Positions 19,048 to 36,054 of a stretch of DNA of 48,461 nucleotides are shown here, in pieces. The position numbers and the translations under genes are program-made. This DNA is from a virus (Duplodnaviria > Heunggongvirae > Uroviricota > Caudoviricetes). The stretch spans positions 1 to 48,461 of the IMG/VR virus record IMGVR_UViG_2778261094_000010. The stretch is one strand, 5' to 3'. The notes below the pieces were generated by a model. It saw only the letters and a list, made by a program, of their open reading frames with translations, ran no database searches and was not told where the DNA came from. Numbering within the stretch: the first letter of the stretch is position 1; every line of letters begins with the position of its first letter.

Positions 19048-19128
19048 AAAAACATCCCTGAAAGTGGGTACCGGTAATACTGAAAATTTATTCCATTAAA
19101 TGAGCATTGTCCTCTCTCATCCATTCCG

Positions 19129-21130: not shown

Positions 21131-21418
21131 GTTCTTTTTTCGCCCAATTATTTTCAAAAAAATTCCCGTGCACAAAAATTTGAGGAGGCGGTCGGTGTCC
21201 GGCAGGGACGGTTTCGTCCTGAAAACCACCCCCACCCCCTCTGACGGCCTCACCAGCGATTGCGAAAACATTCCATGACCTCGCGGTCACGGTCGGTTAA
21301 TCACTTCGCTGTGGTGCGTTTTGTGCGCCCTGTCCTGTTGGCTTTGTGCCCTGTCTCCTGTGTCTTCCATAAGTCACGCTGCCTTATCAGTCCACGTATC
21401 AGCCTGGTTTGCTCCTGT

Positions 21419-22161: not shown

Positions 22162-23368
22162 CTTTTCTCCCTTTAATTTCCACAGTCTGTTTCCATGCCT
22201 GGCTGAACTCATCACCACCTTCACGCGGCGGCATACCCTCGCGTTCGCGAGCTTCGTTCGGATTCATGATCCCGCTCTTAATCCCTTTCTCATACGTGGC
22301 ATAACGTTCGGTGGGTGTGGCGCGCAGTAAATCGGCTGAATCAAACTCAACCAGATAACGGGTACCAGGTACGGGAGAAGTCACCAGCAAAGCGGCCTTG
22401 ATTTGCTGTTCGAAGTTCGCCAGCCACGGGCGCATTGTCATGGTCAGAAATGCGCGGCTCGCCTCACTGAAATTGCTGTAGGTGCTGTTGCTGTATTCCT
22501 GAAGAAAAATCGGCGACACGTTGAACATCCTGGCGATGTCTTCAATGGAGAAGCGACGGGAGGCCAGCCATTCCGCATCCTGGTTACTCATCCCCAGCTG
22601 CCTGTAATCCATGCCCCCTTCAAGGATTGGCGTTTTTCCGGCATTTTTCGCCCCCTTGTAGCGTTCCAGTGCGTCTAATGCCTGTTTACCTTTCACGCCG
22701 TCCAGCCATTCACCTGACGTGATAATCCCTGCCGCCATCATGCCATCTTTCATAATGCTGGCTCCGTGACGCTGTTGAGCAAGGCCAAGCCCCAGCGCCT
22801 CACGGCAAATCGTGACGGGGGAACGCCCCAGAAAGCCATCATCCGAGGCATAGCGGAGATGCAGAACTTCTTCCTGTAAATACGTGCGCACCGTTCCTGT
22901 ACAGGGTTCGGTGATGGTATAGCGGTATTTGTGTGTGCCTGTGCGTTCCGGTACAACACACCCCGGCGCATAAGGATGAAGTGATTTTGGCTGCCCGTCC
23001 CGCCCCCACTCAATAACCGCATAGGCGTTACCGTTCAGCAGGCAGTGACGCATCATTGTGCGTTTAAACTGGTAAGGTGTCAGGCACGAATTAGGCTGCT
23101 CATTCAGCAGAATATCTACCGGGTGACTGTCCAGCCATTCCCGCGCCTCTCTGCCCTTATCATTGCGTACCAGATACAGGTAACACGGCATCGTGGCCAC
23201 CGCCTCAGCGATGACAGAAACCGCGTTCATCACAGCAGGCAATGATTCAGCCGTCCCGGCAGAAACATATTCTCCGGATCCGGTATTTGGTACACCAGAC
23301 AACGCCAGAAAATCATCAATGGACAGGTTACGCAGATCGCTTTTTTTACGACTAAAAGGCCACCACAT
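22154..23368 (-). CDS. Satellite portal protein (HK97 family)
   Basis: Portal-like sequence; start assigned to the ATG at 23368 (MWWPFSRKK), one nt after the protease stop. Confidence 0.85.
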   Translation of the reverse strand: MWWPFSRKKSDLRNLSIDDFLALSGVPNTGSGEYVSAGTAESLPAVMNAVSVIAEAVATMPCYLYLVRNDKGREAREWLDSHPVDILLNEQPNSCLTPYQFKRTMMRHCLLNGNAYAVIEWGRDGQPKSLHPYAPGCVVPERTGTHKYRYTITEPCTGTVRTYLQEEVLHLRYASDDGFLGRSPVTICREALGLGLAQQRHGASIMKDGMMAAGIITSGEWLDGVKGKQALDALERYKGAKNAGKTPILEGGMDYRQLGMSNQDAEWLASRRFSIEDIARMFNVSPIFLQEYSNSTYSNFSEASRAFLTMTMRPWLANFEQQIKAALLVTSPVPGTRYLVEFDSADLLRATPTERYATYEKGIKSGIMNPNEAREREGMPPREGGDEFSQAWKQTVEIKGRKDE

Positions 23369-23369
23369 A

Positions 23370-23930
23370 TCACAACCCCGCCAGTTCAGCCCAGCGATGA
23401 CGATTATTTCCTGCCGGGCGTAATTCAGGGTACTGTGCAAACAACGAACGGTGGGCAATCTCCACGCCGGATTCGGGATAAGCAGGCATCGATGTTATCG
23501 TGATTTCACGGAGTTCTGCGGCGGTTACAGTACGCAGATACGGTTTTTGCGCGATATTCCACTCCTCGCATAATGCGCGAAAGCCAAAGCTCATTCCTGT
23601 AATATCGCCACGTTCCACCAGCGTAAGCACATCTTTTCCAAGCTGGGTATTTGGCGGTGTCAGTTCAAAACGTAGCCCGGTGTTATCCTCAGTCAGTACC
23701 AGTGAGCCGGATTTGGTACGCCCCAGCAGTTGGGTATAGTCATGCTCATACAGACAGCGCACATCATTACCCGCCGCCAGATAGTCAGCAAAAGCCCCCG
23801 GCGTGAACTGTTCGCGAAACTCGTCCCAGATAATTTCTGAAAGGCTGTTCCAGCGAACGGCATAACCCACCAGTTTTTTATCGCTGGCGGTCAGTTCAGA
23901 TGTACGGATTTCAAAATCGGTGTTTTTCAT
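23370..23930 (-). CDS. Satellite prohead protease (HK97 family)
   Basis: Translation from MKNTDFEIRTSELTASDKKLVGYAVRWN with conserved His/Ser regions (YEHD, GMSFGF); GGAG ribosome-binding site before the ATG at 23930. Confidence 0.85.
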   Translation of the reverse strand: MKNTDFEIRTSELTASDKKLVGYAVRWNSLSEIIWDEFREQFTPGAFADYLAAGNDVRCLYEHDYTQLLGRTKSGSLVLTEDNTGLRFELTPPNTQLGKDVLTLVERGDITGMSFGFRALCEEWNIAQKPYLRTVTAAELREITITSMPAYPESGVEIAHRSLFAQYPELRPAGNNRHRWAELAGL

Positions 23931-23979
23931 CGGTGTACTCCATAAAGCTGAAAAAGGAGGCCGAAGCCCCCTTTGCTCA

Positions 23980-25125
23980 TTACTTGCCAGCCTGAATTTC
24001 CAGAATCTTGATGGCGTTCGAATCCACCACACCACCGCCCAGATATTTCTGGGTATAGATGTTAATGAATCCAGGCTCGCTGAAATCCGGACGGGTACGC
24101 GTACCGGTTTTATGGTCAACGATGAAATAACCGCGCTTAAAGTCACCGACTGCAATCACACCGTCCGGCATAAATTCCAGATATTCAACCGGAAGCCCCA
24201 GCAGAGAATCAGGATCACCAGCCTGTAAACGATCGCGCCAGATGTAATCACCAGTGGCATTTTTCAGTTTTTGTGCGGAGGCGGCTGTATTTGAGTTCAT
24301 CACCCATACAGCTTTTTTGCGGTACTTATTGCGCAGCGTAAATTTCAGGTCAATCAGCATATCGGCGCTGAGACTGCCAGTCACTTTTTTCGTCTGGAGC
24401 GTACCGAAAGGACGGGTTTTGTCATTATCCGTAGTGCGCGGGAAAGTCAGGAAACCTTTGGCTTTTTTCTCGCCATCACCGGAAACCAGATCCGTTTCTT
24501 CGGTATCAACGAAAGTGTCGCCAATTTCAGAAGATAACCAGCCCATAATATCGACTTCGGAAAAATCGATAATTTCCTGAGTGGTTTTCGGGTAAGCGTA
24601 GATCGGATACAGGCGGATACTGACTTCATTCAGTTTTGGGGTTGCCGTCTGGTTACGTGCCGCACCTTCTTCGCCGTGTCCCACGACCGCACCCCCGGCA
24701 GAAACCAGTTGCTTAAATTCATTACTGTGAATGGTTTTAACAGTACAGATTTTACGCATCACCGACTCATCAGAAAGCTGACGCATAATTTCTCTGTTCA
24801 GTTCCGGGATAACCGTATAACCACCATCAGCCGGAACACTGCCGGACAGGTTGCGGGTTTCCCCGGTCAGAATGTAAGAGCGTAGCTCGTCTTTGGTGAT
24901 TTTATCTTCGACGGGAACACCAGGCTGGTTACGTTCTTCATCAGCCACAGACTCGAGGCGGGAAATTTCTGTGTCGAGGGAATCGGCTTTTGCACGCAGT
25001 TCATCAAACTGTTTGCCCTCGTCATCGGTTAGACTGCGGTTTTCACTGTCGGCTTTTTCCAGCAGGGATCGCATCTGGTTTTTCAGGGCGGTTTTTTGCT
25101 GGCGGAGTTCGATTAATTTCTTCAT
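23980..25125 (-). CDS. Satellite major capsid protein (HK97 fold)
   Basis: 381 aa; N-terminal coiled-coil delta-like domain followed by an HK97 core (ADGGYTVIPEL); homologous in outline to the helper capsid protein but clearly diverged. Confidence 0.9.
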   Translation of the reverse strand: MKKLIELRQQKTALKNQMRSLLEKADSENRSLTDDEGKQFDELRAKADSLDTEISRLESVADEERNQPGVPVEDKITKDELRSYILTGETRNLSGSVPADGGYTVIPELNREIMRQLSDESVMRKICTVKTIHSNEFKQLVSAGGAVVGHGEEGAARNQTATPKLNEVSIRLYPIYAYPKTTQEIIDFSEVDIMGWLSSEIGDTFVDTEETDLVSGDGEKKAKGFLTFPRTTDNDKTRPFGTLQTKKVTGSLSADMLIDLKFTLRNKYRKKAVWVMNSNTAASAQKLKNATGDYIWRDRLQAGDPDSLLGLPVEYLEFMPDGVIAVGDFKRGYFIVDHKTGTRTRPDFSEPGFINIYTQKYLGGGVVDSNAIKILEIQAGK

Positions 25126-25360
25126 GAAGGTTTTCTCGCATTGGTTAAGATTCAGGACGTGAAACCAACACGGGGGGAGCGCCGCCCGACACTCTCGGCA
25201 TCTCGCAGATCAACCCGGCATCGCGCAGGGGGTCAGGCGGCATTGTGGCGGCTCACGTCTGAGTGCCACACGCCAACATATACATAAAAATCAGTATGTA
25301 AACATCAGCCAGAATCACCGAACAACCTGGAACAACCACGAACAAATAATTTACAAAACC

Positions 25361-25396
25361 TGAAAAAAGGCCCGGAAAAAATCCGGGCCTTTATCG
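25361..25396 (-). terminator. Rho-independent terminator (bidirectional hairpin GGCCCGG-N7-CCGGGCC flanked by A and T runs)
   Basis: Perfect 7-bp stem with A6 upstream and T-rich downstream, immediately 3' of the minus-strand gene ending at 25399. Confidence 0.7.
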
Positions 25397-25398
25397 CT

Positions 25399-25647
25399 TT
25401 ATTGTTTCACTGGCTCCCGCATTCTGCGTCTTATTTTCCACAAATATTCGATCATCGCTTCCACCTGCTCACGGTTGGTTGCGAAAATTTCCCCGGTCAG
25501 TGAGCTACGCAGAAAATCATGATGATCCACAAAAAATAACGCATCGGAAGAAAGCAACCGACGATATTTTTTTGCTGTCGTGGTTTCCAGATCATCAAAA
25601 CCATGAAGCTTTTTATGTTGCTGAACTTCTTCAAATGTCACTGGCAT
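25399..25647 (-). CDS. Hypothetical satellite protein
   Basis: 82 aa ORF overlapping the upstream gene end and followed by a terminator; no recognisable motif. Confidence 0.4.
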   Translation of the reverse strand: MPVTFEEVQQHKKLHGFDDLETTTAKKYRRLLSSDALFFVDHHDFLRSSLTGEIFATNREQVEAMIEYLWKIRRRMREPVKQ

Positions 25648-26180
25648 GTATCCCCCTTTGCTGCCCGGCGCTGGCGCTTGTGCTTCTCATTCAGCACCAT
25701 CAGCCGTGTTTCTGCCTCCTGCTGTTCCTGTGGTGTCACTTCCCCACATGGCTGGCCTTTCAGGTCGTAACGTGCGCCACCAGCTATCAGGGCGCGGTAA
25801 TAGCGCGGAGACTGCGCATAGGATGCCAGCGTCGCACGTAATACCCCCGACCCGAATGCCAGCCCCCTGACGGCGATATCCTGCATCAGGTCGTCGAATA
25901 TCCCCACCTTAAGCGGCTTCGGTGCTTTATGGCTGAATAAGTCAGGCCACATCTCAGTGAGGCGGTTAACGCGTCGGCGGTTTTTGCGCTGCCTTTTGGT
26001 CATATGCTGCCACGGTGTCGCCCCTGCGGTCTTCTGTTTGCGGCTCTGCTGTGCGTTCTGATTATCGGGTATCACTTTATGCGCCGATGTGGTTTTATCC
26101 TGCTCTTGCGCCGCCTGCGTCGTTTTCTGCGGCGTGCCGTAAATGCCTTTCGGCTTCCGGTTAATGGTCAGCGTTGTCAT
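25638..26180 (-). CDS. ProQ/FinO-family RNA-binding protein (putative RNA chaperone)
   Basis: Basic N-terminus, then a FinO/ProQ-like core (PLKVGIFDDL...RYDLKG). Confidence 0.55.
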   Translation of the reverse strand: MTTLTINRKPKGIYGTPQKTTQAAQEQDKTTSAHKVIPDNQNAQQSRKQKTAGATPWQHMTKRQRKNRRRVNRLTEMWPDLFSHKAPKPLKVGIFDDLMQDIAVRGLAFGSGVLRATLASYAQSPRYYRALIAGGARYDLKGQPCGEVTPQEQQEAETRLMVLNEKHKRQRRAAKGDTCQ

Positions 26181-26216
26181 GCCTTCCCCCGTAATTACTC
26201 TGTTCGCTGTTGTGAA

Positions 26217-26642
26217 TTAAAACGGTATGTTATCCCCGTACGGGTCATCGTGCTGGCTTGTCTGTTGTTTTGCCCTGTTCAGTGCGTCAGTGGCCTGGCC
26301 CTGTTGACCTTTTTTGCCGCCCGGTCGCGCCGTTCGCGCACTGATTACGCTGTCTGCAATAACCTGCCAGCCCTGCCGCGTTTCCCCGTTCTGGCCTGTC
26401 CACTGGCTCACCTGCATGTTACCCGCCACGCTCACCAGTTCGCCTTTGTGGTGTTTTGCCAGTGCGTCGGCCTGTCTGCCAAACGCCAGGACAGATAACC
26501 ACATCGTCGCCGTTCCGTCATCTGCCTGGCTGCACGGCAGGGGAACCGCCATACTCGCCATCGCCATTTGTGTCCCTTTGCTGGTGGTCTTTAACTGCGG
26601 GTCAGCCACCAGCCGCCCGTAAGCCGCTATCTGTGCTGTCAT
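26217..26642 (-). CDS. ssb: Single-stranded DNA-binding protein (SSB)
   Basis: OB-fold-like N-terminal region, Gly/Gln-rich linker and an acidic C-terminal tail ending DDPYGDNIPF (compare the canonical SSB DDDIPF tail). Confidence 0.7.
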   Translation of the reverse strand: MTAQIAAYGRLVADPQLKTTSKGTQMAMASMAVPLPCSQADDGTATMWLSVLAFGRQADALAKHHKGELVSVAGNMQVSQWTGQNGETRQGWQVIADSVISARTARPGGKKGQQGQATDALNRAKQQTSQHDDPYGDNIPF

Positions 26643-26706
26643 GCTGTCTGTTCTCCGGTTTTAACGTTGATTGTTACGCTTGTTTACACCCTTACGGTGA
26701 AATTCT

Positions 26707-26829
26707 GCGGGTTATAATCGCACTTTTGCGGGTTATAACTGCCGTTTTGCGGGTTACGTGCGGGTTATTGATTTCCTTTTTATTCATACAGTTAATGCAC
26801 TTATACACAGGATAACCCGCATAACCCGC
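26707..26829. repeat. Iteron cluster A (putative satellite replication origin): 4 direct GCGGGTTA(T/C) repeats, AT-rich spacer, 2 inverted ATAACCCGC copies
   Basis: Direct copies at 26707..26715, 26728..26736, 26749..26757 and 26760..26768; inverted copies at 26812..26829; located just downstream of the replication protein gene. Confidence 0.7.
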
Positions 26830-26852
26830 AACTTTTTACATCACACAGGGGG

Positions 26853-28976
26853 TTAATCTTCTGCCTCAGGCTGGAACATCAGCACGTAAAAAACATGCTG
26901 CTTCCCCCCAATTTTGCTGAGCGCCTTTTTCTTGTAACGGCGGTCGTTCCCCTTTTCCAGCATCCCCGCCGCATCAAGCGCTCTTGCAAAATGCGACGGG
27001 TTAAATCCCTGTGCGATCTCACCTTCAAACACATGCGGGAACGTGTAAAAACGGAACTCGTCATCTTCGTTTCTGATACTCCCCTTTCTGTATCCGGCAA
27101 GTTCTTTAATCGGTAAATCACGCTCGTCGGTGTTGGGCCACGGAAGGTATCTGCTGAATCCGAACGACGCTAAAAAAGCCTCTGCCTGTTCAACCATCTG
27201 TTTAAATTCCCTGTTACCCGTGCCGAACTCCTTCACCCAGGCATTAAAATTATGCTGTATGGCATCGCGGCACGCCTGAACATCCCAGCCAGTAATATGA
27301 CCGGACAACACTAACGCCGCCTCAAGCATGGCAAATCGCTCCCCCACACGGTGAACCTGTTCGCCGTAGCTCTCCGGTATCAGGTTGCGCCACCGTTCAC
27401 GGCATGCCCTTACCGTGTCCTTTGCTTCCTGCTGGTGGTTTGCCAGCCATTTAACCCACTCTCGACCCGCCGCCCCGTGATTTTCTGTCCAGGCATCCTT
27501 TAACGCGTCTGCGTGCGCCTTTCCGGTGCTGTATTCGTGAAACTGCGTGGCTTTTTCCATCGGCACGTTAAGCAGGCGGACAAGCTGCCCCGCCTTGACT
27601 TTTATCCCCTCCGTTTTGAGGAATGTTTCAACGTCCATTTCTCCGGTGCTGATTGCCACCGTGCGCCAGTGTTTGATCTCCCTGTTGCCGCCGTCCTTCG
27701 CCCCCTGTAATTTCCCCGAACCGTTAAACAGCGTATAGGCTGACGTGGACACCTCCCGCGCGTTTCCGGCCTGACCTATTTCATCCAGGGGTAACAGCCC
27801 ATCATTATGTGCTTCGGCCTCGTTGGCGATACCTAACGCCGTGCCGTACCAGGTCAGCCGTTGTGCGTCCGGCTCTCCCCATAAACTGGATGCGATGTTC
27901 TGTGTGGTGGTTTTCCCTGCCGATGACTGTTCGAAAAGATGTACCCCGAAGCCGTCAGCCCCCACCAGCCCGATTAATGGTGCGGATAACGATACCGCCA
28001 CACCCAGCATCATGGACGGATTACCACCAGCCAGCCGCGCCACGGTATCGCGCCAACCCTCCGCCGTTCCTGCCACGGAATAGCCATTAACAGCAGCCGT
28101 TTTTCCGGTAAACAGGGCTGGCTTTTCGCAATCACCAATGACCGAACCGTCCGGCATGATGTACGCGCCAAAATGCCAGCCCGTTGTTGTGCTTAACTGC
28201 CATTCCTCATGGCTTCCGCTTAACTGCATCCAGTCAGCCAGGATAGCCCTGTATTTGCCGTTAGTTGTTACGTTCAGTCCGTGGTCTTTCAGCAGCCGCC
28301 AGCCGTCACGGTCGCCAATGCCACCGCACGGAACCGCCATTGTGATGACTTCATGGTTTGCTAATTTTTTCCAGCGCATCACGCGGTAATGCTCTTTACC
28401 GATTGTCCCCGTTCCCAGTAGTTCAAGCGGGGAACATAACCACGTCTCAGGCCGGATAATTTCGCCTGACTGCTTATCCACTTTTGGCGTTACCCAGAAA
28501 ACACCATCGGCGCGACTTTCAACGCGGGGCTTTAATTCATCATCGCCCTGGCTTTCTGTAATTTTTTTCTTTAAAGGCAACACCAGACTTTCCCCGCGCT
28601 CGTATTCGTCTTTGAGGCGAGGCAACTGGTCGGATAAATCCGCCGGGCTGGTGTCAGTTATACCCGCGTATTCGTATACGGTCTTCACGCCAGCCACAGC
28701 CAGCAACGTGACGATCTGTGTAAGGCTACGTTCAGTGATGTGCCCTGCGCGGTAAACACGCACACACTGACGGCTATCATCAATAATTTGATAACCGGTA
28801 ATATCTTTCAGGTGTTCATCTGACAGAACGACAGGTGGCACATTGTCGGCGGCAATATGCTTACCTGCCCATTCCTGCCACTCTTTCGCATGGCTCCACG
28901 CATCACTACCCGCAAAGATGATAACCTCCGTCATTTTGTCGGCTGGCTGGTGCTTTAAGTTTGGTGCGCGCTTCAT
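26853..28976 (-). CDS. Replication protein, DUF927-type primase/helicase (P4 alpha-like or PICI Rep-like) with Walker A motif
   Basis: 707 aa; Walker A-like SSAGKTT within a DUF927-like helicase core; adjacent iteron cluster; ATGA-type overlap with the upstream ORF. Confidence 0.75.
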   Translation of the reverse strand: MKRAPNLKHQPADKMTEVIIFAGSDAWSHAKEWQEWAGKHIAADNVPPVVLSDEHLKDITGYQIIDDSRQCVRVYRAGHITERSLTQIVTLLAVAGVKTVYEYAGITDTSPADLSDQLPRLKDEYERGESLVLPLKKKITESQGDDELKPRVESRADGVFWVTPKVDKQSGEIIRPETWLCSPLELLGTGTIGKEHYRVMRWKKLANHEVITMAVPCGGIGDRDGWRLLKDHGLNVTTNGKYRAILADWMQLSGSHEEWQLSTTTGWHFGAYIMPDGSVIGDCEKPALFTGKTAAVNGYSVAGTAEGWRDTVARLAGGNPSMMLGVAVSLSAPLIGLVGADGFGVHLFEQSSAGKTTTQNIASSLWGEPDAQRLTWYGTALGIANEAEAHNDGLLPLDEIGQAGNAREVSTSAYTLFNGSGKLQGAKDGGNREIKHWRTVAISTGEMDVETFLKTEGIKVKAGQLVRLLNVPMEKATQFHEYSTGKAHADALKDAWTENHGAAGREWVKWLANHQQEAKDTVRACRERWRNLIPESYGEQVHRVGERFAMLEAALVLSGHITGWDVQACRDAIQHNFNAWVKEFGTGNREFKQMVEQAEAFLASFGFSRYLPWPNTDERDLPIKELAGYRKGSIRNEDDEFRFYTFPHVFEGEIAQGFNPSHFARALDAAGMLEKGNDRRYKKKALSKIGGKQHVFYVLMFQPEAED

Positions 28977-29287
28977 TTTGCCTTTCCCCGTTCACGAATA
29001 ATTTCACGTACTGCCTTAATGCGTTCCATTCCTGTAACGCGCATGATTCTGTCGATGTCGCTTAATTCTGCTGGTGGTGCTTTGCTTACCAGGGGGAACT
29101 CCCTTTCAAAGCGCATATGCGACGACACGCAGGGATGCGCATAACCTTCGCGGATATAGGTCACGCGAAAATCATCGACGGTTTTAATCGTTATCGTGCT
29201 GCCGTATTTATCCCGGAAAATATCGCCGGGGCGGATTTCAGGCCGAGCGTGACCGCTGGCAGTAAAGCCAGAATTTTTCTTTTTCAT
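28973..29287 (-). CDS. Hypothetical satellite protein
   Basis: Start assigned to the ATG at 29287 (MKKKNSGF); translationally coupled to the replication gene. Confidence 0.4.
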   Translation of the reverse strand: MKKKNSGFTASGHARPEIRPGDIFRDKYGSTITIKTVDDFRVTYIREGYAHPCVSSHMRFEREFPLVSKAPPAELSDIDRIMRVTGMERIKAVREIIRERGKAK

Positions 29288-29294
29288 GTTTTTT

Positions 29295-29543
29295 TTACTC
29301 CAGAGGCAGCTTTTTAGCGGCGAGCTCAATATCAGATGTCAGAGAAACCTGTGTATTTGCCAGGTCTAACAACAAAGAAATAAGAATTTCTTCTCTGCTA
29401 TCGGATTTATCGGTGCTAAGGCTGTTCATCCACATATTGACGACTTCCCTGATTTTTTTCGCAGAGTGCAGGGCTTCAAATGCCAGGCCTTCAATATCAT
29501 GTTTATTTCGCATAATCGCCCCCGCCATTTTCACAATCAGCAA
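29295..29543 (-). CDS. Hypothetical satellite protein
   Basis: 82 aa ORF in the early operon; no recognisable motif. Confidence 0.35.
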   Translation of the reverse strand: MLIVKMAGAIMRNKHDIEGLAFEALHSAKKIREVVNMWMNSLSTDKSDSREEILISLLLDLANTQVSLTSDIELAAKKLPLE

Positions 29544-29748
29544 TCAGGATGGCTTTTGCCTCATTCAGCGCCATATCAGCACTAAATTGCATAAGAGCCA
29601 GTGAGTGAGGAACGAAAGCCCCGGTATATTCTGTTTCGCTGGTGGCGTGCTTATGCGCCTTGTCTGCGATAACAGAAATATCAATCAGCGCGTGCATCAG
29701 CGTTTTGATGGCTTCGGCGGCTGCGTCCGGTGTGGTTTTATTATGCAT
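29503..29748 (-). CDS. Hypothetical satellite protein
   Basis: 81 aa ORF in the early operon; no recognisable motif. Confidence 0.35.
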   Translation of the reverse strand: MHNKTTPDAAAEAIKTLMHALIDISVIADKAHKHATSETEYTGAFVPHSLALMQFSADMALNEAKAILIADCENGGGDYAK

Positions 29749-29944
29749 AGGTTTCCCCCTGGCGAATACGGGCGGCGAATACCATCACGCAGCCATCAGG
29801 AGATTGCTGACGCGCTTCCTGTTCGCTGGTGGCCTCAATGGTAATCACGCGCGGTTGTGCCGTGCTCAGGGCGATAAAACGCCAGATGTATTTATTCAGG
29901 TTGTACGAGTCCCGCCCTTGCGGGTGTCTGGTATAATTTCTCAT
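29741..29944 (-). CDS. Hypothetical small protein, first gene of the minus-strand early operon
   Basis: 67-codon ORF (MRNYTRHPQGRDSYNL...) with a GAGG ribosome-binding site, transcribed divergently from the operator region. The listed 349-aa ORF is treated as a read-through artefact. Confidence 0.4.
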   Translation of the reverse strand: MRNYTRHPQGRDSYNLNKYIWRFIALSTAQPRVITIEATSEQEARQQSPDGCVMVFAARIRQGETYA

Positions 29945-30041
29945 AGCTACCTCGATACGCTTTCTATCGTTGGTGGTTAGAAGCCCGGTTAGTGTTAGCG
30001 CACTGCCGGGTTTCGTCGTTTCTGCACCTTGCATCAGTAAG

Positions 30042-30093
30042 GTGTTGAACACCAATTTAAGCCCTGGTGTTAAACACGTCAAGTGTTGAACAC
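30042..30093. promoter_or_regulatory. Operator-like triple palindrome GTGTT(G/A)AACAC in a divergent promoter region
   Basis: Near-palindromic 11-mers at 30042..30052, 30067..30077 and 30083..30093, between the minus-strand early operon and the plus-strand small regulator gene. Confidence 0.6.
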
Positions 30094-30143
30094 TTATTTT
30101 TTTTCCTGCATACTGCATTTGTTTTTTGTAAGGGGTACACAAC

Positions 30144-30323
30144 ATGGCAACAAAAGCAGTAAACGCAAAATCACAAACAGTTGCGGCAAGGGTTCCGCAT
30201 GAAGTTATGAACAATGTTGAGGCGGTAAAAATGCCTGGTGAAAGTACAGGGCAGTTTGTAACAGCAGCATTAAAGCGAGAAGTTGAATACCGCCAGCGTC
30301 GCAAGGCCAAAGAGCAGGAATAA
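30144..30323 (+). CDS. Small putative DNA-binding regulator (59 aa)
   Basis: ATG at 30144 preceded by an AAGGGG ribosome-binding site, immediately downstream of the operator palindromes; small basic protein with a KREVEYRQRRKAKEQE tail. Confidence 0.5.
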   Translation: MATKAVNAKSQTVAARVPHEVMNNVEAVKMPGESTGQFVTAALKREVEYRQRRKAKEQE

Positions 30324-30380
30324 CCATCACCAGCGCCGTGGTGTAAGGTATTACGGCGCATTGCTATGCAGGACAACACA

Positions 30381-30554
30381 ATGACCGATAAAGAATTGAC
30401 CAAAACATTATCACCGACACGGAAAAGACGGCGCAGAAAGATAGAGCATGAATCAGAAAGATTCGCACCTTGTTCGTTTGCTCTTGAGAAATTCCTTAAA
30501 GAGCGCAGGAAAAAACTCTCGTTGCAAACCTTGGAACGAACCAAATCTGACTGA
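30381..30554 (+). CDS. Hypothetical small basic protein
   Basis: 57-codon ORF (MTDKELTKTLSPTRKRRRRK...) with an AGGA ribosome-binding site, followed by tandem terminators. Confidence 0.3.
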   Translation: MTDKELTKTLSPTRKRRRRKIEHESERFAPCSFALEKFLKERRKKLSLQTLERTKSD

Positions 30555-30620
30555 TCACATTGCCCACCAGCCGCAAATGTGGCATTGTTGGTGATGCTTT
30601 TGTTTTCCCTTGTTCCCACT

Positions 30621-30650
30621 GGCGACCCTTTTGCGGTCGCCTTTGTTTTG
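30621..30650 (+). terminator. Rho-independent terminator (GGCGACC-CTTTTGC-GGTCGCC followed by TTTGTTTTG)
   Basis: Perfect 7-bp stem followed by a T tract, downstream of the plus-strand small ORFs. Confidence 0.7.
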
Positions 30651-30745
30651 CCTGTTATCCTGCAACTATGGTCATTTCGACCACGGTTGATATAATCCCC
30701 CCGCACAGATTCATTTTTTGCGCAGTAGGTTAATTGTTCGCAAGG

Positions 30746-30780
30746 GCGCTCCGGTAACGGGGCGCTTTTTGTTTTTACCC
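30746..30780 (+). terminator. Rho-independent terminator (8-bp stem with GTAA tetraloop followed by TTTTTGTTTTT)
   Basis: GCGCTCCG-GTAA-CGGGGCGC hairpin (one G-U pair) followed by a T-rich run; second of two tandem terminators. Confidence 0.65.
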
Positions 30781-30934
30781 ACCAGCACAATAAAAATCTT
30801 CATTTTCCATTTTTGTAAAATTTCATGCTTTCCGGACGACTGGTAATATGTCATTTTTTAGCAGAAGATTTTGCCTTGCTGGTGGGTAGCTTCCCGGTCA
30901 ACACGATGTACCGTATAATCAACACCGCGTGTGG

Positions 30935-31531
30935 TTACTGAATACGCTCACCAAAGTAAAACTCAGGCTGGTATTCACGTATCAGCCTTTTTTCTTCTTC
31001 CTCCAGTTCACGCTTTTTGCGCTTACATGCCTGTAGCTCCCTCCCCTTCTCGCTGGCACTTATCTGGTATTGCTCTTTGCGGCGGGAAAAATCCTGTAAT
31101 GCTCCCCACGGGATACCATAAGCCCCCGTTTTTCTGATACCCGGTATCACATTTCTGAATACCCAATTACTGAAACGATGGGCGAACGTGCCAGGATTAA
31201 CAGCTTTGCGACTTCTGGCGATCAACTTGTAAAAACCTGATTCTGATACAACATTCCAACTTCTGGCACCACCACGCTTACCTGAATGACCCTCGGTTAA
31301 AGCTAGGGTCATTACCTCATCGCTATCCAGAACTGAAACAGCATCGGTAACGTTGCTAATTTCCAGCGCCGCACACACATCAGCGCCAACAAACCACGGA
31401 TCGCCGTTCAGATACACCACGCGAACGTTCACACTATCAAAGCGCAGAACGACCAGATCACGAATATCACAGAATTTTTTCACATGACGTGCGTCACCCT
31501 TGCCCGTCGCGGCAATATTTTTATTCATCAC
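30935..31531 (-). CDS. Bro-N domain protein (antirepressor-like)
   Basis: Bro-N signature (FDSVNVRVVYLNGDPWFVGADVCAALEI...SGFYKLIARSRK) with a Lys/Glu-rich coiled C-terminus. Confidence 0.7.
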   Translation of the reverse strand: MMNKNIAATGKGDARHVKKFCDIRDLVVLRFDSVNVRVVYLNGDPWFVGADVCAALEISNVTDAVSVLDSDEVMTLALTEGHSGKRGGARSWNVVSESGFYKLIARSRKAVNPGTFAHRFSNWVFRNVIPGIRKTGAYGIPWGALQDFSRRKEQYQISASEKGRELQACKRKKRELEEEEKRLIREYQPEFYFGERIQ

Positions 31532-31585
31532 TTTCTACCTCACATACAAAAAACCCCGCATTGCGTGGTGCGGGGTTGTCGGTAA

Positions 31586-31864
31586 TTACTTATTGGCGTT
31601 TTTGTATGGGCTGTTTACTTCCTTTACTCCTGGCGGATGCATAACCCACCAGAGCACATCAGAGAGCAACCAGGAAACAGACACTTTCCCTAAATGAGCA
31701 CGAGCAGGAAATGCTCCCTCCTGTTCAAGTACCCAACGTCTGCTTCTTGAAAGCCCGGTACGATTGGCACACTCATGTTCGCGTATACGGCGATCATACG
31801 GTTCGCCATGTTCTTTCAGAATCTGAATGCGTTCTTCGGGTGTAGGATAAATAAATTTTTGCAT
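31586..31864 (-). CDS. AlpA-like helix-turn-helix regulator (second copy)
   Basis: Translation from MQKFIYPTPEERIQILKEHGE with an AlpA-type C-terminal helix-turn-helix (TGLSRSRRWVLEQEGAFPARAHLGKVSVSWLLSDVLWW). Confidence 0.5.
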   Translation of the reverse strand: MQKFIYPTPEERIQILKEHGEPYDRRIREHECANRTGLSRSRRWVLEQEGAFPARAHLGKVSVSWLLSDVLWWVMHPPGVKEVNSPYKNANK

Positions 31865-31927
31865 AAAAATATCACCTATAAAAAAACCCGCCAAAAGACG
31901 GGTTGATTATATCTCATTTAATTTAGT

Positions 31928-32161
31928 TCAGGGTTTCCATTCACCCTTTACCCATTCCAGCACCTCAGATAAGCGCCAGACTTTTGTTTGTGGGCCAATA
32001 CATATTTTCCGTGGAAATTTTCCTTCCTTTTCAAGTAATGCTCTGTGTCTCCTGCCAAGAGCTGTTAACCATGCACATTCATCTTCCTTAATCATCCTGT
32101 CGATTGTTTTATCATTTTCAAGTTCTTCACGCGTAACTATTTCAATCATTACCGTCACCAC
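31928..32161 (-). CDS. alpA: AlpA-family transcriptional regulator / excisionase-like protein
   Basis: 77 aa with AlpA-like helix-turn-helix (LTALGRRHRALLEKEGKFPRKICIGPQTKVWRLSEVLEWV); immediately downstream of and overlapping the integrase gene. Confidence 0.75.
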   Translation of the reverse strand: MVTVMIEIVTREELENDKTIDRMIKEDECAWLTALGRRHRALLEKEGKFPRKICIGPQTKVWRLSEVLEWVKGEWKP

Positions 32162-33350
32162 TAATTAGCTTATTCAGATAGTCGTACCACCAGTTCATAG
32201 CTTCTTTTTTTCTGTCCATATACTGACTTCTGTTATAAACCCCGGCAACACCGCCTAATGTGTGCCCAAGCAACTGTTCAACCACATTATGTTCAAAACC
32301 ATGATCACTTAGCTTTGTGGCAAACACTCTTCGCATATCATGCGCCGTCCATTTTTCCGAGTGTTTCATCCTTTTCCATGTCTTACCGATAGTTACGCTT
32401 GCCGTACACTGACGCATATCAAACCCAATCACATTTTCTTTGTTACCTGTTATTTTTTTTAACGTAACTAACCAGTTAAACATGCCATCAGGAATCGGTC
32501 TGATTATTTCCCTGCCATTTTTGCTATGATCAGCGGGAACGCGCCATAATTTCTTATCAAAATCCCACTCTACCCAGGACGACAGTAATACTTCTGACAG
32601 TCGACAACCAAAAACTACCAGGAAACGTAAAATAATTCGGTTTTCATATGATAATTCGTGATTGTCATAATCAGTATTAATACTTCGCCATAAATCTCTG
32701 ATTTCATCATCTGTTAAAACCCTGCTTCTTCGCGCAGACTTTTTTCCCACATCACAGACCTCAAGATCATCAATTTCATGACTAATCGCGTATTTTCTTA
32801 CCCTACAAAATTTAAGCGCCTGTTTTGATATACGCAACAAAGCTCCGGCCTGTACAGGTGCTACTTTTTTTATTTTGTCAAAACACTTGATCCACATAGA
32901 TATAGAGCAATCACTAAGTGGTACATGACCAATCACCGGATAAATATGTTTACCAAAGCACTGCCTGATATGTTCTGCTCCCCTACGCTTATCCATTGCA
33001 TAATTATCAAGCCAGTATTCAAGTGCCTCACGAACGGTAACAGGTTGCAAGGTGGCTTCCCGTTCAATTTTTATCTGAATCCGTGGATCTCTGCCCTCCG
33101 CAAGCCAGGTTCGACACTGATCGCGCATCTCTCTCGCTGATTTGAGACTCAGATCAGGATATTTTCCAAGTGTCAGCCAGATGGGCGCGGTTCCCCTTCC
33201 CGCCAGTCTGTAAAAGAAAACAAAACTAACACATCCGTATTTACTGACCCGTACCGAAAGCCCGTTACCATCAGCGATGGTTTCCTGCCTCTCACTCCTG
33301 CGCCCAAGCAGGGAACGAAGTTTTTTATCGCTCAGTTTGTTTAGCGCCAT
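32142..33350 (-). CDS. int: Tyrosine integrase (P4-type site-specific recombinase)
   Basis: C-terminal catalytic motifs (HDMRRVFAT, LLGH, GVYNRSQY); start assigned to the ATG at 33350 (MALNKLSDKKL); lies about 170 bp from the right junction core. Confidence 0.9.
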   Translation of the reverse strand: MALNKLSDKKLRSLLGRRSERQETIADGNGLSVRVSKYGCVSFVFFYRLAGRGTAPIWLTLGKYPDLSLKSAREMRDQCRTWLAEGRDPRIQIKIEREATLQPVTVREALEYWLDNYAMDKRRGAEHIRQCFGKHIYPVIGHVPLSDCSISMWIKCFDKIKKVAPVQAGALLRISKQALKFCRVRKYAISHEIDDLEVCDVGKKSARRSRVLTDDEIRDLWRSINTDYDNHELSYENRIILRFLVVFGCRLSEVLLSSWVEWDFDKKLWRVPADHSKNGREIIRPIPDGMFNWLVTLKKITGNKENVIGFDMRQCTASVTIGKTWKRMKHSEKWTAHDMRRVFATKLSDHGFEHNVVEQLLGHTLGGVAGVYNRSQYMDRKKEAMNWWYDYLNKLISGDGND

Positions 33351-33517
33351 GTGATTTATAACCCGTTTTTGCAATACACAGTGCAATACACAAATGATGA
33401 AAACAGCCAGAACCTTCCAGAAAAAACAAAAACGACGAACAAGAAAAAATCTTTTTCTTTCATTTGGTTACTAAAAAAATCAGGACAGGTCGCACTGTTG
33501 TTACGGCGTGATGTTAC

Positions 33518-33537
33518 TTTCTTGGTAAAAAAATTCA
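33518..33537. repeat. Right attachment junction (attR-like): exact 7-bp core TTGGTAA at 33522..33528 plus imperfect flanking match
   Basis: Direct repeat of the 18605..18611 core; boundary between satellite DNA (integrase side) and the helper terL N-terminal fragment. Confidence 0.65.
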
Positions 33538-34549
33538 CCCGCGCAGAGACCTGTTCTTTCGCTTTTTTCGCCAGGCGACGCAGATCATCCCAGCGTTTAC
33601 AGATGCCCAGGCCGGGATTCGCTTTCTGCCAGACCGTTTCATCAAACGGATCATCTCCCTCATCGAGGGTGTAAATAATCGCAAAGTAGGAGTCGTCTTT
33701 TACCGCGCCCTCCACGTCGCTGTTATAGCCTCGCAATACCTTGATGGCGTAATCGCGTTGCTCGTAACAAATCCCTTCCTTGTTAAAGCCAGCCGTGGTG
33801 ATACCAAATAACAGGGACTGCAGACGGGCACCGGTTGCCGTTTCCAGAACGTCCCACACGTCGCGGGTTTTATGTGCATGCAGCTCATCAATAATGGCGC
33901 AGTGGATGTTCAGACCATCCAGGTTGTTTGCATCCGAGGAAAGCGGTTCAAATTTTGATGCGCTCTGCTCCTGGTAAATCGCCAGCTTGTTGAAATCAAA
34001 CAACCGCCCGAGTGTCGATCGGGCTTTTCTGACCATATTTTTGGCGTCTTCAAACACGATTCTGGCCTGGTCACGCGTGGTTGCGGCTGAATACACCTCA
34101 GCCCCGCCTTCACCATCTGCCCCCGTCATATACAGACCGATACCTGATGACAGGGTTGATTTTGCGTTTTTACGGGCGACTTCGTTGTACGCTGTCCGGA
34201 AACGGCGCACCATCACCGGGCGTCCGCTGCCATCGCTGCGCATGACAACTTCCCCGGTCTCTTCATTCACCAGCGGAATGACAAAACCAAAAATATTAAT
34301 GAGGATAAAAACATGCCAGTCCATCAGTTCAATGGGCTGACCTGCCAGCGCCCCTTTTACATGGGGCACAAATTTGTAGAAATTCAGGATGTGCTGCGCA
34401 CGGGGTTCACTGAAATAAATCCCCCGCTCTTCGCCGTACTTCAGATCATCAAGAAAACGCTGGCAGGCCAGACGGACAAATTCACCAGCGACAATTTCTC
34501 CTGCAACAACACGTTCGGCGTAGCGGATCCCGTCAGCCACTTTTGCCAT
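33522..34549 (-). pseudogene. terL: Helper prophage terminase large subunit, N-terminal ATPase-domain fragment (5' part of a terL split by the satellite)
   Basis: Translation through DETVWQKANPGLGI...ARVNFFTKK parallels satellite TerL (DDPAMWIKANPNID...EMLTKRFNIW), then runs into unrelated low-complexity sequence (VTSRRNNSATCPDFF...) after the junction at about 33522; the ORF's true stop is at 33356. Confidence 0.8.
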
Positions 34550-35031: not shown

Positions 35032-35178
35032 AATCGATTTTACCTATCAATCGTTTGATCGCATTCCCAAAAAAAAGTTTTCGAACCTGCGGCGATGCGA
35101 GGAAGGGTTGGCGGGCGGTCCCGGACAGCCAGGGCTGCAGGGATTTGCCCCGCCCCTCCCTACAAGTGAGAATAATTA

Positions 35179-35529: not shown

Positions 35530-35871
35530 TGGAATCTCCTTAATACCGACATTATCGCAGCCCCTCACTGAAGGGCTGCTGTAATGCCTGTTACTCACGA
35601 ATCAATCGAGCATGTTGACCGCTCATTTCAATGCGTAAGTATTGTGGCTTGCCGTCAATCAACGCGGTGATTAACTTATCACCTGTAGGTTTCCACATAA
35701 TTTTCTCCTGTTTTAATGCCCCTTGCCGCCGGGCAGTTGATCAAAGTTCATCTTGATTCGGCAAGATTTAGAATGAATAAGATAAAATTGGCACACGCAG
35801 CAGAATTTCATGCTTTCCGGACGCTGACGCACCCTTCATTTTTCAGCAAAATATTCTGCTCTTACAGGCGA

Positions 35872-36054
35872 TCAGTTCTGCAGACACTGCCGAACACCGT
35901 CGACAATTTCACAGACCTGAGACGCGGTATCGAAAAGCTGGCGCGCCTTATCCAGGCTGACGCACCCCACCAATAAAAAAGGCACCAGTATCGCTACCAG
36001 TGCCCGTTTCACCGCCGTTCGCGGCATTCTGTGTGTCCAGTGTTTTCGCGCCAT
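35872..36054 (-). CDS. Putative small lipoprotein (possible Rz1-like or Bor-like)
   Basis: 60 aa with signal-peptide-like N-terminus and LVGC lipobox; downstream of the lysis cassette. Confidence 0.35.
   Translation of the reverse strand: MARKHWTHRMPRTAVKRALVAILVPFLLVGCVSLDKARQLFDTASQVCEIVDGVRQCLQN

What the first reader, a model, noticed from the sequence alone, without database searches (positions are those of the whole stretch)
30819..30875. Conserved ~57-bp element shared between satellite and helper (second copy at 35804..35860)
An exact 20-mer AATTTCATGCTTTCCGGACG occurs at 30819..30838 in the satellite and at 35804..35823 in the helper. In both, a non-conserved 12-nt spacer is followed by TCATTTTT and a similar 17-nt stretch (TAGCAGAAGATTTTGCC versus CAGCAAAATATTCTGCT). 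The helper copy lies upstream of its HNH-terS-terL block; the satellite copy lies between convergent transcription units. Two conserved boxes with a variable spacer suggest a protein-binding or promoter-like site, possibly a signal both elements respond to, or a trace of past recombination.
Basis: seen in the sequence. Interest (0 to 1): 0.55.

Follow-up and report, generated by a model that had tools for sequence, protein, structure and literature searches.

The report
Conserved 60-bp palindromic phage spacer element
The sequence shared by the satellite and its helper prophage is real, but it is one copy of a widespread, previously unannotated ~60-bp non-coding element that sits just after lysis-module genes in E. 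coli lambdoid phages (including Shiga-toxin phages) and in some satellites; its function is still only inferred.

Summary
The exact 20-mer occurs only at 30819 and 35804 (0.01 expected by chance), followed by a variable 12-nt centre, TCATTTTT and a 12/17-similar stretch. It is not specific to this pair. Both copies belong to a family found at 221 places in the DNA fetched here and in about 1,000 of 5,426 complete E. coli genomes, including phiP27, 933W and VT2-Sakai. The element is about 60 bp and nearly fixed in length. It has two boxes more conserved than the flanking DNA, a hypervariable and often palindromic centre, and dyad symmetry between the boxes. In phages it starts 0-13 nt after the stop codon of lysozyme R, a small lipoprotein gene or an HNH gene, co-oriented with late transcription. 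Sequences on both sides differ between phages, so it lies at mosaic joints. The satellite copy lies in an optional ~285-bp cassette together with a predicted sRNA gene, inside a long hairpin (z = -5). The element is not cos, att, a sigma-70 promoter, an intrinsic terminator, an ORF or any Rfam family. My best guess (confidence 0.35) is a REP-like or sib-like stem-loop in the co-directional transcript that also serves as a recombination joint. A DNA protein-binding site is not excluded. Satellite and helper copies do not strictly co-occur.

The parts
30815..30876 (-). Satellite copy of the element. Read on the minus (gene-sense) strand it is box 1 (GCAAAATCTTCTGCTAAAAAATGA), then the variable centre (CATATTACCAGT), then box 2 (CGTCCGGAAAGCATGAAATT).
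   Evidence: profile match E = 3e-13. Box 2 is identical in three diverged satellites, while three of the differences among them fall in the centre.
35799..35862 (-). Helper copy of the element: box 1 GCAGAATATTTTGCTGAAAAATGA, centre AGGGTGCGTCAG, box 2 CGTCCGGAAAGCATGAAATTCTGC. It starts 11 nt after the stop codon of the upstream lipoprotein ORF. Homology to phiP27 stops at 35801.
30775..30889 (.). Long imperfect inverted repeat that encloses the satellite copy (outer 11-13 bp ACCCACCAGCA/TGCTGGTGGGT, then AAAATCTTC/GAAGATTTT).
   Evidence: MFE -37.7 and -36.9 kcal/mol, z = -5.1 and -5.0 on the two strands, with 0 of 200 shuffles folding as well. The helper copy has no such extension (z = +1.0 and +0.6).
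30651..30935 (.). Optional ~285-bp cassette in the satellite's 'Bro zone'. It holds the sRNA promoter, the predicted sRNA, its terminator and the element. It is nearly identical in three satellites and missing precisely in E. coli EC28.
30669..30777 (+). Predicted sRNA gene linked to the satellite copy: promoter TGGTCA-16-TATAAT with an upstream TG (30669-30696), and a terminator with a 12-bp stem (30742-30769) plus a U tract.
   Evidence: Homologues with the same terminator occur in many P4-like satellites. In L175 and L242 the sRNA homologue lies on the other side of the element.
35872..36054 (-). Helper 60-aa lipoprotein ORF (lipobox LLVGC) immediately upstream of the helper copy. Its lipobox codons (35956-35967) repeat the element's 12-nt centre.
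35105..35165 (-). The helper's real cos region, homologous to the experimentally annotated 10-bp cos site of phiP27, between HNH and terS. It is single copy in the window and is not the element.
18610..33600 (-). Helper-embedded, capsid-forming PICI-type satellite (boundaries approximate) that splits the helper terL gene. An imperfect 22-bp direct repeat GCAATACACAG[C/T]GCAATACAC lies at 18687 and 33371.
   Evidence: tblastn with phiP27 TerL: aa 8-293 at 34525-33602 and aa 319-570 at 18609-17878. The satellite's own HNH, TerS and TerL lie at 21859-19213. Annotation of near-identical genomes.

Best explanation
Both copies belong to an unannotated family of ~60-bp, non-coding, imperfect-palindrome elements carried by Escherichia lambdoid phages and by some PICI/P4-like satellites. 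Shown: two boxes are conserved more strongly than neighbouring DNA, their spacing is fixed, the centre is hypervariable and often palindromic, the outer parts of the boxes are complementary, and the element is co-oriented with the gene just upstream of it and lies at mosaic joints. Inferred: it acts in cis as a stem-loop in the co-directional transcript. That transcript is the helper's Q-dependent late mRNA, or the satellite's int-alpA-bro mRNA, which helper late transcription can also read into. The stem-loop would punctuate the polycistronic RNA at the end of the upstream cistron by protecting or processing its 3' end, in the manner of REP elements or lambda sib. The conserved unpaired box sequences would be recognised by a common host or phage factor. 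Because it is conserved between otherwise unrelated modules, it also serves as a joint for homologous recombination. That would explain the mosaic flanks and how a copy entered the satellite's dynamic Bro zone.
For: The family and its anatomy: 221 profile hits in the loci held; 86 of 94 unique sequences have identical length; the variability profile is conserved-variable-conserved. Within four classes the boxes vary 0-3%, the flanks 1-11% and the centre 6-23%. Dyad symmetry: 85% of cells pair in the three-helix model against 34-48% when partners are slid, and the covariation score is 0.144 against 0.085 in shuffles (0 of 500 reach it). RNAalifold gives the same architecture in all classes. Centre palindromes of 8 bp or more occur in 22 of 86 sequences against about 5% of shuffles, with compensating variants such as CGTTGGCCAACG, CGTTGATCAACG, GCGTGGCCACGC and TGTCGACA. 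The satellite copy sits in a hairpin with z = -5.1, and its box 1 has diverged so that it pairs with a new flanking partner. Position: 0 nt after the stop codon of lysozyme R in 933W, 11-12 nt after the lipoprotein ORF, 13 nt after an HNH/Ref-like ORF and 59 nt after BRO-N, always on the same strand as that gene. Mosaic joints: one upstream flank type pairs with five different downstream flank types, and phiP27 homology ends at 35801. The idea that helper late transcription reads into embedded satellites has been proposed in PMC10111431.
Against: No expression or RNA-end data were available. Fold energies of the helper copy are not significant (z = -1.0 to -1.6 for 81 nt; +0.6 and +1.0 for 121 nt). 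Truly compensatory changes are few: 4 pairs changed on both sides, the same as in shuffles. Whole classes carry uncompensated A.C mismatches (pairs 15-66 and 24-57 in the lysozyme-linked class; 12-69 in the satellites), and G.U versus A.C asymmetry does not pick a strand. The centre's hairpin energy is no better than shuffled sequence (-5.1 against -4.2 kcal/mol). Fixed spacing with conserved boxes would fit a double-stranded DNA protein-binding site equally well. The element is dispensable: K-12 Qin lacks it, as do the helper prophage in EC28 and several related satellites.
Confidence: 0.35

Rival explanations
1. It is a double-stranded DNA binding site. A dimeric or bipartite DNA-binding protein contacts the two boxes at a fixed distance, and the centre is free to vary. 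The protein could be a Bro-N/KilA-N/Ant-type protein or a host factor. Satellite and phages would then share a regulatory input.
For: Conserved boxes, nearly invariant spacing and a hypervariable centre. Palindromic centres and dyad symmetry suit dimeric proteins. Bro-network genes lie next to the element in several contexts: BRO-N in the window satellite, AntA/B in L175 and L242, ant in 933W and KilA-N in pPE4. No strand preference is detectable.
Against: Most contexts have no Bro-type gene nearby: the window helper, phiP27, SF-088 and L051. Inverted repeats 46 bp apart would be unusual for a single operator. The element keeps a fixed orientation and distance relative to the upstream stop codon, which a DNA site would not need. 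No binding data exist.
Confidence: 0.2
2. It has no function of its own. It is a short sequence that persists and spreads because recombination among lambdoid phages and satellites keeps copying it (a module-boundary 'linker' or scar), and the shared 20-mer is a trace of such an exchange.
For: It lies at mosaic breakpoints on both sides. It is optional in both phages and satellites. Its taxonomic range is narrow: in the one-genome-per-species scan essentially only Escherichia matched. This fits recent spread better than ancient constraint.
Against: The boxes are more conserved than adjacent coding and non-coding DNA in each of four classes, while the centre between them is the most variable zone. 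A neutral scar should decay evenly. In the satellite, box 2 is a 20-nt island of identity flanked on both sides by satellite-specific sequence, which would need two crossovers within about 30 nt. Length is preserved across classes.
Confidence: 0.17
3. It mediates RNA cross-talk between satellite and helper. A plus-strand satellite transcript, either the adjacent sRNA or read-through across the element, would pair with the helper's minus-strand late mRNA at the shared boxes to tune helper late genes.
For: The element and an sRNA gene are linked in two different satellite arrangements. The sRNA's 5' region (UUCAUUUUUUGC) resembles box 1 on the same strand, so it is complementary to GAAAAAUGAA in late transcripts, giving runs of 10-11 nt. 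Antirepressor genes are classically controlled by antisense RNAs (review PMC12197685).
Against: The sRNA's best minus-strand targets in the window do not include either copy. In the O157 146N4 composite the sRNA's 5' region differs but the helper's element does not co-vary. Many satellites carry the sRNA without the element. The sRNA terminator is strong, and no plus-strand promoter was found at the element.
Confidence: 0.08
4. It is a packaging signal: a cos or cos-like site that the satellite copies from its helper, as P4 copies the P2 cos site.
For: A roughly 57-bp helper/satellite shared element upstream of HNH-terS-terL recalls the 55-bp P2/P4 cos region (from my own knowledge of that system; it is also cited in the cf-PICI preprint).
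Against: The phiP27 cos site is annotated between HNH and terS. Its homologue is at 35105-35165, about 650 bp from the element, and it is single copy in the window. The satellite encodes its own HNH, TerS and TerL. The same element precedes unrelated terminase modules (pPE4) and lies between R and Rz in Stx phages.
Confidence: 0.01
5. It is a sigma-70 promoter, an intrinsic terminator or a small ORF.
For: On the plus strand a T-run follows the centre. ATG codons occur in both boxes on the minus strand. The plus-strand frame FHAFRT-xxxx-SFFS is open in all classes (by inspection).
Against: The scans found no promoter-like or terminator-like site at either copy. Plus-strand centre hairpins are no more stable than shuffles. 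The minus-strand ATGs are ATA or ACG in the lysozyme-linked class. Centre lengths of 9-13 nt break the frame in some copies. The plus-strand frame has no start codon in four of the five classes (by inspection).
Confidence: 0.05

Closest known systems
REP / BIME (repetitive extragenic palindromic) elements of E. coli
   Same: Short imperfect palindromes that lie outside genes but inside operons, just after stop codons, with a variable apex. They are known (from the literature, not tested here) to stabilise upstream mRNA and, when close to a stop codon, to affect the upstream gene. The apex of many helper-type centres (GACGC-TGGC-GC) even resembles a REP apex as I recall the consensus.
   Different: The sequence is different. 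Copies are confined to prophages and satellites (1-8 places per genome). I saw no GTAG/RAYT signature, but I did not test this formally. Long unpaired box sequences are conserved, which REPs lack. Evidence for a hairpin is weak for the helper type.
Lambda sib/tI retroregulator and T7 intercistronic RNase III sites
   Same: A stem-loop placed 3' of a cistron in a transcript made by terminator-resistant RNA polymerase. The satellite copy lies 3' of an int-containing operon that helper late transcription can enter.
   Different: No sequence similarity. RNase III cleavage was not tested. The helper copy lacks a long continuous helix.
Module-boundary ('linker') sequences of mosaic lambdoid phages
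   Same: A conserved island between exchangeable modules, with homology between phages starting or stopping exactly at its edge.
   Different: It has an internal conserved-variable-conserved anatomy, a fixed length and dyad symmetry, which imply constraint beyond being a crossover point.
P2/P4 shared cos region
   Same: A helper/satellite shared non-coding element of about 55-60 bp located near the packaging genes.
   Different: It is not at the cos position. The satellite has its own terminase and no copy of the helper's cos. The element also occurs between lysis genes in other phages.
Helper-embedded PICIs (HE-PICIs; Tommasini, Mageeney & Williams 2023, PMC10111431) and capsid-forming PICIs
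   Same: This is the context, not the element. The satellite has int-alpA, a Bro zone, a primase and a late zone with capsid and terminase genes, and it is integrated in a helper late gene in the same orientation.
   Different: In the passages I searched, that paper does not describe this element. It reports C4/isrK-type immunity RNAs in Bro zones, and none was detected here.

Membership tests
cos packaging site (phiP27/HK97-type, HNH-dependent) | Lies at the position of the mapped cohesive-end site next to terS | tested here: not met
   The phiP27 cos feature lies between HNH and terS. Its homologue in the window is at 35105-35165, while the element is at 35799-35862.
cos packaging site (phiP27/HK97-type, HNH-dependent) | The satellite carries the helper's cos sequence | tested here: not met
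   GGCGGGCGGTCCCGGACAGCC is single copy with up to 3 mismatches allowed. The satellite has its own HNH, TerS and TerL.
Integrase attachment site (attL/attR) | Identity block at the two junctions of the integrated element | tested here: not met
   The junctions are near 18.6 kb and 33.4-33.6 kb. The copies lie 2.5 kb inside the satellite and 2.4 kb outside it.
Sigma-70 promoter | -35 and -10 hexamers with 16-18 bp spacing, conserved across copies | tested here: not met
   The scans report none at either copy. The candidate hexamers fall in the hypervariable centre or in class-specific flanks.
Intrinsic (Rho-independent) terminator | A stable GC-rich hairpin directly followed by a U tract | tested here: not met
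   The scan did not call one. The only U tract is on the plus strand, where the centre hairpins are no better than shuffles (-3.28 against -3.26 kcal/mol).
Protein-coding small ORF | Conserved start codon and reading frame across homologues | tested here: not met
   The minus-strand ATGs are lost in the lysozyme-linked class. Centre lengths of 9, 11 and 13 nt occur. The plus-strand frame lacks a start codon in four of the five classes.
Any Rfam RNA family (including C4/isrK immunity RNAs and ribozymes) | A covariance-model match | tested here: not met
   No match at gathering threshold over the window apart from tRNAs and sok. Nothing credible at E up to 10 over either copy.
REP/BIME elements | An imperfect palindrome located outside genes, just 3' of a stop codon and within an operon | tested here: met
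   85% of cells pair, against 34-48% in slid controls. Gaps to the upstream stop codon are 0-13 nt in phages.
REP/BIME elements | REP consensus with a GTAG head, many chromosomal copies, RAYT association | not tested
   Not compared formally. The copies are restricted to prophages and satellites. The box sequences do not look like REP as I recall the consensus.
Structured cis-regulatory RNA | Base pairs maintained by compensatory substitutions on a defined strand | tested here: inconclusive
   The covariation score exceeds every shuffle, but only 4 pairs change on both sides, the same as in shuffles. G.U versus A.C asymmetry conflicts between helices.
CRISPR repeat-like solitary unit (RNA anti-CRISPR) | Close match to a host CRISPR repeat, including the hairpin and the handle | tested here: not met
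   Compared by eye with the E. coli type I-E repeat, recalled from memory. Only the 9-nt apex GCGCCAGCG is shared, and only in some variants of a hypervariable centre.
Helper-embedded / capsid-forming PICI (context of the satellite copy) | int-alpA, primase and own capsid and terminase genes; integrated in a helper late gene, co-oriented | tested here: met
   Annotation of genomes 96% identical. The split helper terL and the satellite's HNH, TerS and TerL were confirmed in the window. The definition is in PMC10111431.

The most novel reading that the evidence does not exclude
The element is a new class of cis-acting signal of Escherichia lambdoid late operons, with conserved recognition boxes presented on a variable stem-loop. 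A common host or phage factor would read it, and helper-embedded satellites would have adopted it, together with a linked sRNA, to plug their int-alpA-bro operon into the helper's late-gene programme. The hypervariable centre would act as a specificity or arms-race determinant.
Probability: 0.15. Interest if true: 0.7.

Novelty: new variant of a known kind. Interest (0 to 1): 0.45.

Why it matters
If the element is functional, it is an unrecognised control point in the late operon of Shiga-toxin phages (933W, VT2-Sakai, Stx1 and Stx2 prophages) and of phiP27-like phages. It sits right after the endolysin or spanin-side genes, where it could set lysis-gene dosage, and therefore toxin release and timing. 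The same element in helper-embedded satellites would be a rare example of a shared cis-element between a satellite and many possible helpers. Even if it is only a recombination joint, it marks a precise and recurrent breakpoint that explains how lysis, moron and packaging modules are reshuffled, and how phage DNA enters the satellites' Bro zone. It is currently unannotated: at most, automatic annotation calls a hypothetical protein over it.

Tried and rejected
1. cos-site mimicry was my first idea. I rejected it using the phiP27 cos annotation and the single-copy cos homologue.
2. An att site was rejected by position.
3. A lysozyme gene fragment: about 800 weak BLAST hits were labelled 'lysozyme', but they overlap the gene by only one base. 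The element starts right after the stop codon.
4. Small ORFs on either strand were rejected.
5. A promoter or terminator was rejected.
6. Known RNA families: none matched.
7. Literature: neither box sequence appears in any held paper. The EHEC anti-sRNAs (PMC4104026) and the Pas sRNAs (10.64898/2026.05.13.724894) map elsewhere.
8. Joint acquisition with the BRO-N gene: the protein has only distant phage homologues.
9. Kissing-loop or specificity partner for the centre. The only significant match is the helper centre repeated at the lipobox codons of the upstream ORF, and co-variation there is only partial. This remains unexplained and may reflect templated mutation.
10. The satellite sRNA targeting the element was not supported.
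11. Strand assignment from G.U versus A.C asymmetry gave conflicting results.
12. Strict co-occurrence of satellite and helper copies was not found. The satellite/helper states were (+,+) three times, (+,-) twice and (-,-) once.
13. An automated ORF-orientation test was too noisy to use.
14. Resemblances to the CRISPR I-E repeat, the lac operator, a DnaA box and a CsrA site were noticed by eye and judged to be chance.

Full report
OBSERVATION. The exact 20-mer AATTTCATGCTTTCCGGACG is present at 30819-30838 and 35804-35823 on the + strand and nowhere else in the window, even allowing 3 mismatches; 0.01 matches are expected by chance. It is the only notable repeat shared between the two elements in 24-38.5 kb.

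CONTEXT. Nearly all genes here are on the minus strand. Annotated E. coli genomes that are 96% identical, and a tblastn with phiP27 proteins against the window, show a lambdoid, phiP27-like prophage. Its late region runs Q, tRNAs, holins, M15 endolysin, a small membrane protein, a 60-aa lipoprotein, HNH, terS, terL. The terL gene is split (aa 8-293 at 34525-33602; aa 319-570 at 18609-17878) by a satellite of about 15 kb. The satellite carries int, two HTH genes (one alpA-like), BRO-N, an opposite-strand ylcI/ynfO gene, icd-like, DUF4222, a DUF927 primase, SSB, ProQ/FinO, and its own capsid, protease, portal, connector, HNH, TerS and TerL genes. It is therefore a capsid-forming PICI in the 'helper-embedded' configuration, which Tommasini, Mageeney and Williams have already described (PMC10111431). 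The arrangement itself is known.

WHAT THE ELEMENT IS NOT. My first idea was that the satellite mimics the helper's cos site, as P4 does with P2. It fails. phiP27 has an annotated 10-bp cos site between HNH and terS. The homologous sequence in the window is at 35105-35165, is single copy, and lies about 650 bp from the element. The satellite has its own packaging enzymes. The same element also precedes an unrelated terminase module in phage pPE4. It is not an att site, because the junctions are at about 18.6 and 33.5 kb. No sigma-70-like promoter or intrinsic terminator is called at either copy. No Rfam family matches. Small ORFs are excluded: the minus-strand ATGs are ATA or ACG in one large class, centre lengths of 9-13 nt occur, and the open plus-strand frame lacks a start codon in four of the five classes. 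About 800 weak BLAST hits labelled 'lysozyme' turned out to touch that gene by only one base, because the element starts right after its stop codon.

A WIDESPREAD FAMILY. A scan with box 1 alone found a further large class. About 1,000 of 5,426 complete E. coli genomes carry a copy. Named phages with the element include phiP27, 933W, VT2-Sakai and many Stx1 and Stx2 phages. K-12 Qin lacks it. A degenerate two-box pattern scanned over one genome per species matched essentially only an Escherichia contig, so the family is narrow taxonomically.

ANATOMY. Read on the window's minus strand, which is the sense of the surrounding genes, the element is box 1 (GCAGAATATTTTGCTGAAAAATGA), a centre of about 12 nt, and box 2 (CGTCCGGAAAGCATGAAATTCTGC). 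Of 94 unique sequences, 86 have exactly the same length. Per-column variability is low in the boxes, high in the centre and high outside the element. Within four separate classes the boxes vary 0-3%, the flanks 1-11% (including the upstream coding DNA) and the centre 6-23%. The boxes are therefore constrained. The centre is either a mutational hotspot or under diversifying pressure.

POSITION AND MOSAICISM. In phages the element begins 0 nt after the stop codon of lysozyme R (933W and Qin-like prophages), 11-12 nt after the 60-aa lipoprotein ORF (the window helper and phiP27) and 13 nt after an HNH/Ref-like ORF. In satellites it lies 59 nt after BRO-N, or 162 nt after an AntA/B gene with an antisense sRNA gene in between. 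It is always on the same strand as that upstream gene. Among 131 loci with 1.3-kb flanks there are 12 upstream and 19 downstream flank types, and they are reassorted. The lipoprotein-type and R-type upstream flanks each pair with five different downstream flanks. Homology between the window helper and phiP27 ends exactly at 35801. The element therefore travels with the gene upstream of it, and its downstream edge is a recurrent recombination joint.

SYMMETRY AND STRUCTURE. The outer parts of the boxes are complementary (GCAGAAT/ATTCTGC and TGCT/AGCA), and the centre often forms its own palindrome. In a three-helix model 85% of cells pair, against 34-48% when partners are slid by 1-3 columns, and the covariation score exceeds all 500 shuffles. 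Centre palindromes of 8 bp or more occur in 22 of 86 sequences against about 5% of shuffles, and they differ between copies in a compensating way: CGTTGGCCAACG, CGTTGATCAACG, GCGTGGCCACGC, TGTCGACA. The case for a defined RNA fold is nevertheless weak. Only 4 pairs change on both sides, no more than in shuffles. Whole classes carry uncompensated A.C mismatches, and G.U versus A.C asymmetry points to different strands in different helices. The helper copy does not fold better than shuffled sequence. The satellite copy is different. It is enclosed by about 29-nt imperfect inverted repeats that give a 115-nt hairpin with z = -5.1 on either strand, and its diverged box 1 pairs with a new flanking partner. 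That suggests pairing matters, at least in the satellite.

THE SATELLITE COPY IS PART OF AN OPTIONAL CASSETTE. Across E. coli genomes many related satellites share the ylcI-terminator-sRNA segment or the BRO-N gene but lack the element. Three satellites that do carry it are almost identical over about 285 bp (roughly 30651-30935), although their neighbouring ylcI terminator regions have diverged. Within the cassette, three of the differences among the copies fall in the element's centre, with a few others in the sRNA 5' region and nearer BRO-N. E. coli EC28 lacks exactly this segment. The cassette also contains a predicted sRNA gene, with a 10/12 sigma-70 promoter that has an extended -10 and a terminator with a 12-bp stem. 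Two AntA/B-type satellites (L175 and L242) carry the element and an sRNA homologue in the opposite order. I tested whether the sRNA targets the element. Apart from its own antisense region, its best minus-strand targets in the window are elsewhere. In an O157:H7 composite, where the satellite sits in the terL of the Stx1 prophage, the sRNA's 5' region differs but the helper's element does not co-vary. That idea is not supported.

IS IT A SHARED SATELLITE-HELPER SIGNAL? Satellite and helper copies co-occur in the window, in TUM1881 and in O157 146N4. ETEC4090 and GPT24-02 have the satellite copy without a helper copy, although the ETEC4090 helper is degraded. EC28 has neither. The element is therefore not a private signal of this pair, and the satellite copy does not require a helper copy.

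AN UNEXPLAINED DETAIL. The helper's 12-nt centre (GCTGACGCACCC, 35822-35833) recurs at 35956-35967, where it encodes the lipobox (G-C-V-S) of the upstream lipoprotein ORF; 0.006 such matches are expected. Across phages the lipobox site is nearly constant, while the centre is a noisy version of it with only partial co-variation. Templated (quasi-palindrome or quasi-repeat) mutation could explain both this and the hypervariability, but I could not test it.

MOST LIKELY MECHANISM. What is shown is a constrained, fixed-length, dyad-symmetric, non-coding element. It is co-oriented with the gene upstream, lies immediately 3' of it, and marks mosaic joints. From this I infer a cis-acting stem-loop in the co-directional transcript that marks the end of the upstream cistron by protecting or processing its 3' end, as REP elements and lambda sib do. 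The conserved unpaired box sequences would serve as a recognition surface, and the element would act incidentally as a homologous-recombination joint. I put this at 0.35. A double-stranded DNA protein-binding site, perhaps for Bro-network proteins whose genes neighbour the element in several contexts, fits the fixed spacing equally well (0.2). A functionless recombination linker is disfavoured by the box/centre/flank contrast but is not excluded (0.17). An antisense cross-talk model is at about 0.08. The promoter, terminator and ORF readings together are at about 0.05, and cos is effectively excluded (0.01). About 0.14 remains for something not considered here.

NOVELTY AND INTEREST. Neither box sequence occurs in any searchable paper, and at most automatic annotation calls a hypothetical protein over it. 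The helper-embedded satellite arrangement is already published. The element itself looks like a new variant of known kinds of feature (extragenic palindromes, module-boundary sequences) rather than something categorically new, and its function remains inferred. Its presence directly after the endolysin gene of Shiga-toxin phages makes it worth a simple deletion and RNA-end-mapping experiment. Interest: 0.45.

Noticed in passing
window 17878-34525: The satellite is embedded in the helper's terL gene, co-oriented with the late operon. Related satellites sit in the terL of an Stx1a prophage (O157:H7 146N4) and in a portal gene (EC28). This helper-embedded PICI configuration is already described in PMC10111431.
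   Followed up: yes
window 30669-30777 (+): A predicted sRNA of about 75 nt with a strong promoter (TGGTCA-16-TATAAT plus an upstream TG) and terminator, convergent with the BRO-N operon. Its 3' half is conserved and its 5' region varies among hundreds of E. coli satellites. Its 5' part resembles box 1 of the element. No Rfam family matches.
   Followed up: partly
window 35956-35967 versus 35822-35833: The helper element's hypervariable 12-nt centre is an exact direct repeat of the lipobox codons of the upstream 60-aa lipoprotein ORF. Across phages the coding copy is stable and the element's copy is noisy.
   Followed up: partly
window 35980-36005 (-): A terminator-like hairpin (11-bp stem plus a T tract) lies inside the signal-peptide coding part of the lipoprotein ORF, about 105 nt upstream of the helper element.
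   Followed up: no
window 30037-30058 and 30078-30099: Two 22-bp direct repeats, each containing the palindrome GTGTTGAACAC, lie in the short divergent region between the icd-like operon and ylcI. They are probably operators of the satellite's regulatory switch.
   Followed up: no
window 25638-26180 (-): The satellite encodes a ProQ/FinO-family RNA-binding protein (named from the annotation of a genome 96% identical). It is a possible partner for the satellite sRNA or for structured RNAs such as the element.
   Followed up: no
window 44438-44613 (-): A full-length sok antitoxin RNA (Rfam RF01794, 120 bits), so the helper prophage carries a hok/sok-type locus. Three tRNA genes (Arg-tct, Arg-tcg, Met) lie at 38177-38426, upstream of the lysis genes in minus-strand sense.
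   Followed up: no
window 30851-30937, 35841-35874; L234 3069-3097: In three contexts (BRO-N, the lipoprotein ORF and lysozyme R of 933W) the reading frame of the upstream gene continues past its stop codon, in phase and without further stops, to the TGA inside box 1 (…GAA AAA TGA). This may be chance (rough p about 0.04).
   Followed up: no
L234 (phage 933W) 2255-3100; L243 5030-5870: In Stx phages the element lies between lysozyme R and an ant (Bro-network) moron that separates R from Rz. Phages whose R and Rz genes overlap (K-12 Qin) lack both the element and the moron.
   Followed up: partly
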